Below are positions 16,701 to 19,700 of a DNA stretch of 64,000 bases, piece after piece. Every line of letters starts with the position of its first letter. Position 1 is the stretch's first letter. The position numbers and the translations under genes are program-made. This DNA comes from Hormiphora californensis (taxonomy: Eukaryota; Animalia; Ctenophora), in NCBI GenBank assembly GCA_020137815.1, contig CM035352.1:496001-560000 (forward strand), written 5' to 3'. The notes beneath the pieces are model-generated. The model did not search any database. It worked only from the letters and a program-made list of their open reading frames with translations, and was not told the DNA's origin.

Positions 16701-19700
16701 CTGTTCTTCAGATTTATCTGTATCAGTATTAGTGTGTGTGCTTGCTCAATGTGTGTGTGTGTGTGTGTTTACTCATTACCTCCCGGTGCTACAACCCCCC
16801 TAAACGGGTAGCGAAGCTAAGACGGTCCCTGTGACCCCCCAACCTTTTAAACTTGTATATCCGAATAAACTTGACATGTGGGAAGTAGCGATCCTACTAT
16901 ATCTTGCCAGTACCTCAGCCCTATTACCCAGCCGGAGAATAGCTAAACATTGAGCTTGCTCAATGTGTGTGTGTGTGTTTACTGTATCAGTATAGTTTAG
17001 CGACCCTTTAAATAGAATTCACAAGTTGACAGGTTGAAAATTCAATATGATCTGCCTTTAGCAATAATGGCACGAATATATGCAAAATTAAATGACCATT
17101 ATGTCTTGTGATTTAGGTTTCAAGCTTGACAGCTCATTATTTTAATAATATTTTAAACTTCGACCATCGAAAAATAACGAGCTGTCGAGCTTGAAATCTT
17201 AAATCGAAGTTCGAGGCTCCGCTGTCATGAATGCTGTATAATGCACTATAAGGTATAAATGCACTATAAGGTATAAATCGGCGTCGTTCCTTCCCCGCTC
17301 GTCATATTACTCTTACATTGAGGGTGGTGGGTTGAACAGAGAAGGAGTTGGTATCCTCCCCTACCACTGACACAGCATAAGAAATGGGCTTATTGGAAGG
17401 GTTCTGTATCTTTAGGTCCTTTACAACTGGCTGATGTAATACTCCCTCAAAACATACTGACGCTTTGGGCCTGATGACATAGAGTTAGAAATATGTGGAG
17501 ATATTATAATACAGCTGATATGTTACATGATGAGTCCAACATAATACACCTACTTGTATTGTGGCAATGTAATGTAAAGGTGGGTACAGAATAGCAGCAT
17601 ATTGATCGCGTTGGGCTGCATAATGTCAGTAGGATGGATGTCATAATCAATGCCAATACTCCGCAGTGCATGCAGTACGTTTAGAGCGTTGTGGAAACAC
17701 TCCTCTGGGCTCTGTACTCTCAGATACATGTCCGAGAAGAACTGGTTGACCTAACGAGGGAGGGGGAGCATGAGAAGAATTGGTTGACCTAACGAGGGAG
17801 GGGGAGCATGAGAAGAATTGGTTGACCTAACGAGGGAGGGGGAGCATGAGAAGAATTGGTTGACCTAACGAGGGAGGGGGAGCATGAGAAGAATTGGTTG
17901 ACCTAACGAGGGAGGGGGAGCATGAGAAGAATTGGTTGACCTAACGAGGGAGTGGGAGCATGAGAAGAATTGGTTGACCTAACGAGGGAGGGGGAGCATG
18001 AGAAGAATTGGTTGACCTAACGAGGGAGGGGGAGCATGAGAAGAATTGGTTGACCTAACGAGGGAGGGGGAGCATGAGAAGAACTGGTTGACCTAACGAG
18101 GGAGGGGGACCATGAGAAGAATTGGTTGACCTAATGAGGGAGGGGGACCATGAGAAGAATTGGTTGACCTAACGAGGGAGGGGGAGCATGAGATGAATTG
18201 GTTGACCTAACGAGGGAGGGGGAGCATGAGAAGAATTGGTTGACCTAACGAGGGAAGGGGGCATGAGAAGAATTGGTTGACCTAACGAGGGAGGGGGACC
18301 ATGAGAAGAATTGGTTGACCTAACGAGGGAGGGGGGCATGAGAAGAATTGGTTGACCTAACGAGGGAGGGGGACCATGAGAAGAATTGGTTGACCTAACG
18401 AGGGAGGGGGACCATGAGAAGAATTGGTTGACCTAACGAGGGAGGGGGAGCATGAGAAGAACTGGTTGACCTAACGAGGGAGGGGGACCATGAGAAGAAT
18501 TGGTTGACCTAACGAGGGAGGGGGAGCATGAGAAGAATTGGTTGACCTAACGAGGGAGGGGGAGCATGAGAAGAATTGGTTGACCTAACGAGGGAGGGGG
18601 CCCAGTGGCTTTTTAGAAAAATCTCGCTGCGAATCGCATGTCACAGAACCTGATTAGATCCCATTCCGCTGTCGCTGCTGCTGTGGCAGCAGTCGTTCTG
18701 CTCTCGTTCTTCTCCCATTCCGCTGTAATTCCGCTGGCGCGGCGGGAATAACTGCTAACAATTGGGATCTCTAATCGAAATCCGCGCCCGTTTCTAGCAA
18801 TTGTGGCTCTCTAAACATGTAACGATCACATAAGAGCACTAATGAGGTGTGAGAGCAGCATTACCAAGCAAAACAGGGATTTTTCTCTCTATTTTTCTGC
18901 TGTCAGTCAAATTTCTCGCTGCGAATGGGATTCGCCCATTCGCTATAAAAAGCCACTGGGGGAGGGGGACCATGAGAAGAATTGGTTGACCTAACGAGGG
19001 AGGGGGAGCATGAGAAGAATTGGTTGACCTAACGAGGGAGGGGGAGCATGAGAAGAATTGGTTGACCTAACGAGGGAGGGGGAGCATGAGAAGAATTGGT
19101 TGACCTAACGAGGGAGGGGGAGCATGAGAAGAACTGGTTGACCTAACGAGGGAGGGGGAGCATGAGAAGAACTGGTTCAGCTGCATTGTGGAGTGACTGA
19201 GTGAATTTCCATGGTAACCTGAAGATACTCACCAAGAATGGGCAATATGCAGATAGTAGAGTAGCCAGAACAAGACCATCTAGGAGGTCATTATCAAAGG
19301 AGATGACCCATCTTGTTTGAGGTGTGTTTTCAGGCCATACAACCTTTCTTTGACTCTCGTAGTGGTAAGACAGCCACGCCAGGAGTACTCTCTCTTCAGT
19401 GCTGTATACTGACCGGGCTAGCCTGCATGATGAGTTGTGGGTATGTAATTGTACAACCAGAAATAAGTTCGAGATGCTACTGATACTTTCTGTCAGGTCA
19501 ATGCTCTGACAATCTTATCTTTAATACTTAATAGTGCAAGTCTTGACACTAAACGCAATTCTTACTAACGTTTTATAAGAGTCTGGGTTTATTGGAAGAG
19601 ATTTGAGGGGTTTAACCTTGATCAATACAAACACTTTAGCCAACTGTAGGACTAGATCCACCCATGCTTGGCTGGAAAACTTTGTATGCCTGAAAGGTGT

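What the first reader, a model, noticed from the sequence alone, without database searches (positions are those of the whole stretch)
17734..19177. Intron built from ~28 tandem copies of its own 3' splice junction; only the last copy gives protein
Seen: the 38-bp unit is 21 nt of intron end (pyrimidine tract + TTAG) plus the first 17 nt of the exon (GTCAACCA.TTCTTCTC). In transcript order ~27 near-identical acceptors precede the real one at 17751. Retaining 1-2 units frameshifts and 3 units ends in an in-frame TAG, so upstream choices are unproductive. Every unit reads AG|GT, the signature of recursive (ratchet) splice points and the substrate for intron gain by tandem duplication. Inference: either strict exon definition skips all decoys, or the intron is removed stepwise, or array length tunes productive CFAP47 output via NMD.
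Basis: partly seen in the sequence, partly recalled or inferred. Interest (0 to 1): 0.8.

Follow-up and report, generated by a model that had tools for sequence, protein, structure and literature searches.

The report
Splice-acceptor "mirage" minisatellite in CFAP47
A 38-base piece spanning the end of an intron and the start of the next exon of a cilia gene (CFAP47) is repeated head to tail, giving 28 splice-acceptor look-alikes with a likely small transposon inserted among them; this kind of repeat is already known from lancelets as a "mirage" and is likely tolerated clutter that splicing skips.

Summary
The array is real: 28 AG|GT junctions (98.7% unit identity) fill most of a CFAP47 intron (19232-17751, minus strand). 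All 28 upstream single-step acceptor choices hit a premature stop. A second individual carries the same unit and 5' boundary. It fits the published 'mirage' class of junction-spanning minisatellites (amphioxus; human F7, IFI6, CBS), and this scan has noted the same thing in many other genomes. Ratchet splicing is unlikely: the regenerated donor TTG|GTCAAC scores below all 44 donors annotated in this gene, none of which has C at +3. The array did not create the intron. One open point: this gene's introns are short (median 125 nt), and the first copy offers an equally strong acceptor 90 nt from the donor, so how the last copy wins is untested. No RNA of this genome could be laid across the array; the only spliced-looking contigs come from a relative about 81% alike. 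Verdict: new member of a known kind, modest interest.

The parts
19233..19422 (-). Upstream CFAP47 exon (first half of a calponin-homology-like domain), ends in phase 0
   Evidence: phmmer to mouse CFAP47 1725-1788, E 6e-19; weak Pfam CH/CAMSAP_CH below cut-off; both ends matched by contig junctions of run X8
19227..19232 (-). Splice donor GTGAGT of the array-bearing intron (unique sequence)
   Evidence: Sequence; donor score 0.22, 5 of 44 donors score as low or lower
19178..19232 (-). Unique 55-nt 5' part of the intron; holds an in-frame, in-register AG at 19182-19181; differs in the second individual between about 19196 and 19185
   Evidence: X5 contig leaves the reference at 19197; X6 loose end at the array edge
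18969..19177 (-). 5' block of the 38-bp array: 14-bp exon-identical partial unit, then acceptor copies at 19143, 19105, 19067, 19029, 18991
18601..18960 (.). 360-bp non-coding element with 15-bp terminal inverted repeats (MITE-like), inserted in one unit
   Evidence: no second copy in the window by blastn; no Rfam match of note
18961..18968 (-). 8-bp target-site duplication, left copy (right copy 18593-18600)
   Evidence: identical 8-mers on both sides
17734..18600 (-). 3' block of the array: 23 acceptor copies from 18585 to the real one at 17751, ending 17 nt into the exon
17751..17788 (-). Last unit, holding the productive acceptor: branch-point-like CTCAT (A at 17771, position -21), pyrimidine tract, TAG. 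The same elements are in nearly every unit
   Evidence: acceptor score 4.91, at or above 31 of 40 other acceptors; the branch-point role is inferred from the yTnAy pattern
17554..17750 (-). Downstream CFAP47 exon, 197 nt, starts with Val; next donor at 17553
   Evidence: phmmer to mouse CFAP47 1791-1853, E 6e-11; open frame through 13 joined exons; X8 contigs join it to the upstream exon

Best explanation
This is a minisatellite whose 38-base unit spans the 3' splice site of a CFAP47 intron (a 'mirage'); it likely arose by an ordinary tandem duplication, likely grew by slippage or unequal crossing-over, and is likely tolerated because splicing would favour the last copy, the only one followed by the full 197-base exon and its donor. 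Shown: the anatomy, the identity of the acceptors, the stop codons after every upstream choice, the inserted element, and the presence of the unit in a second individual. Inferred: a pre-expansion intron of about 90 nt (1482 minus 1392); cross-exon definition as the selector; occasional use of the nearest few copies (exons of 235-349 nt, inside this gene's range of 98-366 nt), with those transcripts removed by nonsense-mediated decay. No function is proposed for the array itself.
For: Published mirages have the same anatomy and were reported not to disturb splicing (PMC3087553; PMC3902484). In human F7 the copy next to the real exon is the one used (PMC1557585; a donor array). The gene looks intact: three blocks of 13, 10 and 9 hand-joined exons translate without a stop (748, 717, 600 aa). 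The two exonic differences listed for the second individual in these two exons are both synonymous. That individual shares the unit, a tandem junction and the array's 5' boundary, although a 416-base intronic contig nearby differs by 9 substitutions and a 7-base gap, so the array has persisted. The gene is prone to such repeats: 9 separate intronic arrays in 11-32 kb, 1 of which spans a junction; a rough chance model expects about 3 of 8, so no targeting is needed. A second array in the same gene (28990-30560) also took a transposon-like insertion. Local RNA folding does not separate real from decoy sites, which leaves downstream exon context as the remaining difference.
Against: No RNA from this genome was laid across the array, so use of the last copy here is not shown. 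The gene has short introns (median 125 nt; 32 of 41 at most 250 nt), the range where intron definition is reported to work (background passage in PMC3640928), and the first copy gives a 90-nt intron with the same acceptor score as the real site. In the other 40 introns only 2 have even one upstream AG as strong as their own acceptor, against 17 here (the matrix included those acceptors, which flatters them). So this intron is a real outlier, and some loss of productive mRNA is plausible. Human IFI6 and CBS arrays do leak to neighbouring copies. Two apparent frameshifts elsewhere in the assembled gene (near 14455 and 30960) were not resolved and could be assembly errors or real lesions.
Confidence: 0.66

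Rival explanations
1. Costly or tuning array: upstream copies capture a large share of splicing, the products are destroyed by nonsense-mediated decay, and array length sets how much CFAP47 is made.
For: 17 upstream AGs score at least as well as the real acceptor; the first gives a typical 90-nt intron in a short-intron gene; all upstream choices give stops. Summed contig depth over the unit, relative to flanks, is higher in the second individual in both calls (about 100-290x against 19-30x; about 470-700x against about 220x), a hint of length variation only, since the tool says depth is no copy number and the two source-sample runs disagree tenfold.
Against: No expression data. Published mirages do not disturb splicing. 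The array persists in two diverged haplotypes with synonymous exon differences.
Confidence: 0.16
2. Recursive (ratchet) splicing: the donor joins an upstream copy, the AG|GT regenerates a donor, and the intron is removed in steps, ending at 17751.
For: All 28 junctions read AG|GT; the end product would equal the normal mRNA; an early copy lies at a typical intron distance.
Against: The regenerated donor TTG|GTCAAC scores -6.7, below 44 of 44 donors and at the 18th percentile of all GT sites in 11-32 kb; 0 of 44 donors have C at +3. Fly recursive sites generally have strong motifs, and nearly all recursive segments exceed 1 kb (PMC6110457 passages). A one-unit step (38 nt) is shorter than the shortest annotated intron here (55 nt). 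AG|GT is at 6 of 40 other acceptors of the gene.
Confidence: 0.07
3. Two-step route through a micro-exon: an early copy is used as acceptor, the internal CTC|GTTAGG serves as donor, and a 33-nt in-frame piece (11 residues) stays in the mRNA.
For: The route is in frame and stop-free for most units; GTTAG-type donors occur at 5 of 44 annotated donors (listing).
Against: CTC|GTTAGG scores -3.5, below all 44 donors (lowest -3.0). In 71 of 72 homolog alignments across this junction the length differs by only -2 to +1 residues; the one +32 case looks like an unspliced intron, so an 11-residue insert has no precedent among them.
Confidence: 0.06
4. The array, or the intron, is a recent intron gain by tandem duplication of an AG|GT proto-splice site, or an insertion into the exon behind an older acceptor at 19181.
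For: An in-frame AG sits at 19181, in register with the units, followed by 14 bases identical to the exon start. One relative's predicted protein (P0105, 82% identical) reads straight across this junction while apparently running into both flanking introns.
Against: The donor and first 55 nt are not repeat-derived. Distant homologs P0004/P0114, P0005 and P0024 show apparent intron read-through at the same position (inferred from protein only). The X8 relative and P0105 have Val as first residue, matching AG|GTC and not the Leu that 19181 would give; Leu is at this position in 1 of 72 alignments. The 19181 site is a weaker acceptor (1.3, at or above 8 of 40).
Confidence: 0.03
5. Assembly artefact.
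For: No contig spans the array; the window shows homopolymer-rich, error-prone stretches elsewhere (for example 55400-56100).
Against: The unit is at high depth in runs of two samples from two studies; one run of the second sample shows the tandem junction, and runs of both show a unique-to-repeat boundary at the same place. Units carry distinct variants and a clean insertion with target duplication. The exact copy number could still be off.
Confidence: 0.02

Closest known systems
Amphioxus 'mirage' minisatellites (globins BflGb6 and BflGb9, Adh3, troponin C, PGBD5). PMC3087553 and PMC3902484, passages seen; the original Adh3 paper was not seen
   Same: Tandem copies of an intron 3' end plus exon 5' start, as in BflGb6; unit length inside the 10-72 bp range given for Adh3; AG/GT kept in the copies; end copies differ from inner ones (here both ends carry the exon's G variant, 24 of 27 inner starts carry A).
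   Different: 28 junctions against 3-6 units in BflGb6; carries a MITE-like insertion; sits in a gene with very short introns; host is an unnamed eukaryote whose lineage I could not fix; normal splicing not shown for this genome.
Human junction-spanning VNTRs: F7 IVS7 (37 bp, 5-9 copies), IFI6/6-16 (25 pseudo-sites), CBS IVS13 (15-20), LMNB2, PDGF. PMC1557585, abstract and passages seen
   Same: Similar unit length and copy number; identical splice signals repeated into the intron; the copy beside the real exon is the authentic site.
   Different: Those repeat the donor; this repeats the acceptor with a branch-point-like motif. The 5'-to-3' scanning rule proposed for F7 would here pick the wrong (first) copy, so it cannot be carried over as is.
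Recursive splice sites (ratchet points) of Drosophila and human long introns. PMC6110457, passages seen
   Same: AG|GT juxtaposition inside an intron.
   Different: Weak regenerated donor, 38-nt spacing, 1.5-kb intron, sequence copied from the exon start; no sign of independent conservation.
Intron gain by tandem genomic duplication (Rogers model; potato RdRp case PMC4974935, search listing and abstract start only)
   Same: Tandem duplication of a stretch holding AG|GT.
   Different: Here the donor is unique sequence outside the repeat and the intron position appears older than the array.

Membership tests
Mirage / junction-spanning minisatellite | Head-to-tail tandem units of minisatellite size | tested here: met
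   38-bp period, 22.9 + 5.7 copies; 98.7% mean identity
Mirage / junction-spanning minisatellite | Unit spans an exon-intron boundary, terminal copy being the authentic one | tested here: met
   21 nt intron + 17 nt exon; boundary fixed by mouse CFAP47 alignment and by collinear X8 contigs
Mirage / junction-spanning minisatellite | Copies keep cryptic splice signals | tested here: met
   28 of 28 junctions keep TAG|GT; 17 upstream AGs score at least as high as the real one
Mirage / junction-spanning minisatellite | Length varies between alleles | tested here: inconclusive
   Second individual has higher summed unit depth and extra unit variants, but contig depth is not copy number
Mirage / junction-spanning minisatellite | Regular splicing is not disturbed | tested here: inconclusive
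   Only a relative about 81% alike (X8, 2 contigs) shows the direct junction; whether it has the array is unknown
Recursive splice site (ratchet point) | AG|GT juxtaposition | tested here: met
Recursive splice site (ratchet point) | Strong regenerated 5' splice site | tested here: not met
   Score -6.7, below 44 of 44 donors; +3 C in 0 of 44 (small matrix from one gene)
Recursive splice site (ratchet point) | Long intron with segments of about 1 kb or more | tested here: not met
   Intron 1482 nt, sites 38 nt apart against passages
Recursive splice site (ratchet point) | Splicing intermediates in nascent RNA | not testable with these tools
   No nascent or total RNA run of this genome was listed
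Intron gained by tandem duplication | Both donor and acceptor come from the duplicated segment | tested here: not met
   Donor 19232 and first 55 nt are unique
Intron gained by tandem duplication | Intron absent in outgroups | tested here: inconclusive
   Protein calls suggest the intron in distant homologs (P0004/P0114, P0005, P0024) but not in P0105; no DNA of these was seen
MITE (inner element) | Short, non-coding, terminal inverted repeats, target-site duplication | tested here: met
   360 bp, 15-bp inverted termini, 8-bp duplication
MITE (inner element) | Many dispersed copies in the genome | not testable with these tools
   No whole genome held; single copy in the window

The most novel reading that the evidence does not exclude
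In a short-intron animal where intron definition should pick the first copy (a 90-nt intron), the 27 decoy acceptors are really used, either stepwise through a non-canonical GTC donor or as an NMD sink, so that a length-variable array acts as a heritable dial on the output of a ciliary central-apparatus gene. The locus would then be a natural test of exon against intron definition with 28 near-identical acceptors and alleles of different length.
Probability: 0.12. Interest if true: 0.65.

Novelty: new member of a known kind. Interest (0 to 1): 0.25.

Why it matters
As it stands it is one more mirage, a class described in lancelets and humans and seen many times in this scan (71 earlier notes held the words, in at least 8 genomes). 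Its small added value is as a clean natural reporter: 28 near-identical acceptors, each with a branch-point-like motif, in a gene whose introns are mostly under 250 nt, where the first copy and not the last would be expected under intron definition. Junction counts here would show how such an organism defines 3' splice sites and what the array costs. If array length set CFAP47 output, it would be a functional splice-site VNTR.

Tried and rejected
No whole genome is held, so genome-wide enrichment and MITE copy number were not tested. The look-up of sequencing runs listed no RNA holder; this is no evidence on expression. Run X7 (another organism) laid 0 contigs; no conclusion. Reads were laid on the two flanks with 35-68 bases of the repeat each, not across the whole array, so no contig could bridge it. 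The search for homologous proteins gave nothing for two CFAP47 exons and one unnamed hit for the neighbouring single-exon gene, so the host lineage stays undetermined; my impression of a ctenophore-like genome is recall, not a result. The metagenome scan gave one weak 26-residue locus (L001), not followed. Rfam gave one chance-level hit (E 0.55). RNA structure as the selector of the last copy: rejected, predicted accessibility is the same at real and decoy AGs. An ancestral acceptor at 19181 with the array as an exon insertion: considered and ranked low (Val, not Leu, in the two closest relatives seen). The acceptor part of the script had an off-by-one slice (its check column prints False) and crashed; it was redone (40 of 40 AG); the donor results are unaffected. 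About five introns with ambiguous ends and the last three exons were left out of the 41; 3 extra donors were added to make 44. The 49-bp array was left out of the chance model (8 of 9 arrays) because its intron end is ambiguous. The classic in vitro work on duplicated splice sites (Reed and Maniatis) is recalled only; one search did not find it. Searches for a published case in this gene or in ctenophores found none (none of the 10 listed of 1,547 held 'CFAP47'); the library lacks most subscription papers, and no supplements were read.

Full report
Observation. On the minus strand, 28 junctions of the form xTAG|GTCAACCA run from 19143 to 17751. The 27 segments between them are 24 of 38 bp, 2 of 37 bp and one of 406 bp. 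The 24 full units average 98.7% identity to the last one (13 identical, 10 with one difference, 1 with two). Tandem Repeats Finder gives two blocks, 17734-18600 (22.9 copies, score 1629) and 18960-19177 (5.7 copies, score 415). The array opens with a 14-base partial unit identical to the exon sequence.

Gene context. The flanking exons match mouse CFAP47 (PDB 9ijj_4A): the upstream exon ends at residue 1788 and residue 3 of the downstream exon aligns to 1791, so they join without a gap. tblastn with three full-length homologs places the gene across about 32200-7800 on the minus strand. I annotated 41 introns by hand; their median is 125 nt and 32 of 41 are at most 250 nt. Three blocks of joined exons translate without stops (748, 717, 600 aa). 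Subtracting the extra units and the insert leaves a 90-nt intron, a typical size for this gene (inference).

Frames. With donor 19232, each of the 27 upstream unit acceptors, and an in-frame AG at 19181, leads to a stop 15-87 codons after the junction; only 17751 stays open. Two-step routes that keep the frame exist on paper: a zero-length ratchet step at AG|GT, and a 33-nt micro-exon ending at an internal CTC|GTTAGG.

Splice-site strength. A matrix from 44 donors of this gene gives the real donor 0.22 (the matrix includes it), the ratchet donor TTG|GTCAAC -6.7 and the internal CTC|GTTAGG -3.5; the leave-one-out scores of the 44 range from -3.0 to 6.6, and none has C at +3. A matrix from the other 40 acceptors gives the real site and standard decoys the same score, 4.91; 17 upstream AGs in this intron score at least that, while only 2 of the other 40 introns have even one such AG. 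Each standard unit also has a branch-point-like CTCAT at -21, partly made of exon-derived letters. AG|GT occurs at 6 of those 40 acceptors, so it is no special signature. Predicted local structure is the same at real and decoy AGs. These matrices come from one gene and are rough.

Other samples. Six DNA-like runs from two samples hold the region: four at about 0.9 (probably the source, so not independent) and two at about 0.5. In the second sample the unit is present at high summed depth, a tandem junction and a variant unit are seen, and a contig shows the same 5' boundary with different intron sequence upstream. A 416-base intronic contig of that sample differs from the window by 9 substitutions and a 7-base gap. 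The two exonic differences listed in the flanking exons are synonymous. Unit depth relative to flanks is higher in the second sample in both calls, but the two source-sample runs give 19-30x and about 220x for the same array, so this is only a hint of length variation. Run X8, guessed to be RNA and filed under the same species label, is only about 81% alike. Two 182-base contigs run from the upstream exon into the homolog of the downstream exon, with 9 bases (Val-Ala-Pro for Val-Asn-Gln) in register, and another contig joins 19422 to the previous exon. This confirms the exon ends, the phase and Val as first residue in a relative. It does not show how this genome splices its array.

Age of the intron. 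Among 72 homolog alignments across the junction, 71 differ in length by -2 to +1 residues. The exception, P0004, has 32 extra residues that look like an unspliced in-frame intron at the same place, and P0005 and P0024 begin with apparent intron read-through ending at it. I infer that the intron position is old and that the array did not create it. Against this, P0105 (82% identical) reads across the junction while seeming to run into both neighbouring introns; intron loss or a partly spliced transcript could explain it, and I could not fetch its DNA.

Is the junction targeted? Between 11 and 32.3 kb the gene holds 9 separate intronic arrays of period 10 or more (11 rows, two pairs split by insertions); 1 spans a splice site. 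A rough model, the chance that a unit-length duplication touching an intron of the pre-array length crosses a boundary, expects about 3 of 8 (0.58 for this intron). No enrichment is needed. A second array (34-bp unit, 28990-30560) lies wholly inside an intron and is also split by an element with inverted termini, so the pattern 'array plus insertion' is not tied to splice sites.

Mechanism. Most likely a duplication across the acceptor seeded a minisatellite that expanded and later took a MITE-like insertion. The last copy is likely chosen because it alone is followed by the 197-nt exon and the donor at 17553; each step upstream adds 38 nt (235, 273, 311, 349; exons of this gene span 98-366 nt), so leakage to the nearest copies and removal by NMD are likely. 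These steps are inferred. The weak point is that intron definition is reported to work below about 200-250 nt in human cells and 100 nt in flies (background passage of PMC3640928), and the first copy offers a 90-nt intron. I put tolerated clutter at 0.66, a costly or length-tuned array at 0.16, ratchet splicing at 0.07, the micro-exon route at 0.06, intron gain at 0.03 and artefact at 0.02.

Comparison with what is known. The lead to 'mirages' came from earlier notes of this scan, and I checked it in print. PMC3087553 (passages) describes minisatellite-like duplications of the intron 3' end and exon 5' start in amphioxus globin BflGb6, with allele-length differences, AG/GT signals in many copies and no effect on regular splicing by RT-PCR; PMC3902484 (one passage) adds Adh, troponin C and PGBD5. 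PMC1557585 (abstract and passages) covers human donor arrays (F7, 6-16, CBS, LMNB2, PDGF), some of which leak to neighbouring copies. The three anatomical features of the class are met; allele-length variation and undisturbed splicing are inconclusive here. Two defining features of recursive sites are not met (PMC6110457 passages). The scan found this class before on other DNA many times and had no note on this sequence.

Verdict. Observation confirmed with corrections; interpretation partly supported. New member of a known kind. Interest 0.25. The boldest reading not excluded, real use of the decoys so that array length sets CFAP47 output in a short-intron organism, has probability about 0.12 and would deserve about 0.65.

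Noticed in passing
window 28990-30560: A 34-bp minisatellite wholly inside a 1660-nt CFAP47 intron, whose unit also contains TAG|GT. It is split by a 1107-bp element (30357-29251) with 125-bp terminal inverted repeats and an apparent TA target duplication. Its two outer ends share a variant absent from inner units, as in the main array.
   Followed up: partly
window 21134-21279: Three copies of a 49-bp unit containing TTTCAG lie shortly before a CFAP47 exon whose acceptor I could not fix (candidate near 21093); they may be further decoy acceptors.
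   Followed up: partly
window 24555-25412: A degenerate GC-rich array begins 6 nt after the donor at 25418 and fills most of a 1011-nt intron.
   Followed up: no
window about 14455 and about 30960: Apparent frameshifts inside CFAP47 exons; the one near 14455 is supported by a frame change in tblastn. Assembly error or real lesion not resolved.
   Followed up: partly
window 17751-17774 (run X6 loose end): One contig of the second individual has the intronic part of the unit preceded by a pyrimidine-rich non-exon sequence; it may be the pre-duplication intron end on another allele, or another locus. One contig only.
   Followed up: no
window 19185-19196: The second individual has different and apparently longer intron sequence here, directly before the shared array boundary.
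   Followed up: partly
protein P0105: An 82%-identical relative reads across this exon junction while seeming to run into both flanking introns: possible intron loss or partly spliced RNA.
   Followed up: no
run X8: Filed under the same species label but only about 81% alike in CFAP47 exons, with two variant contigs; a cryptic or mislabelled relative is possible.
   Followed up: no
window 5391-6434 (+): Single-exon ORF of 347 aa just beyond the CFAP47 3' end that looks to me like a multi-pass membrane receptor (recalled impression); no Pfam family passes cut-off, one unnamed homolog at 62%.
   Followed up: partly
window 32900-38200: Nested fragments that look like reverse-transcriptase retroelements by eye, with a 478-bp near-perfect inverted repeat (35234-36211) inserted in one of them.
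   Followed up: no
window 20270-20455, 22100-23370, 59540-59740: A recurring short inverted-repeat element with internal 16-17-bp repeats; it draws very high contig depth in both samples, so it is likely a high-copy MITE family.
   Followed up: no
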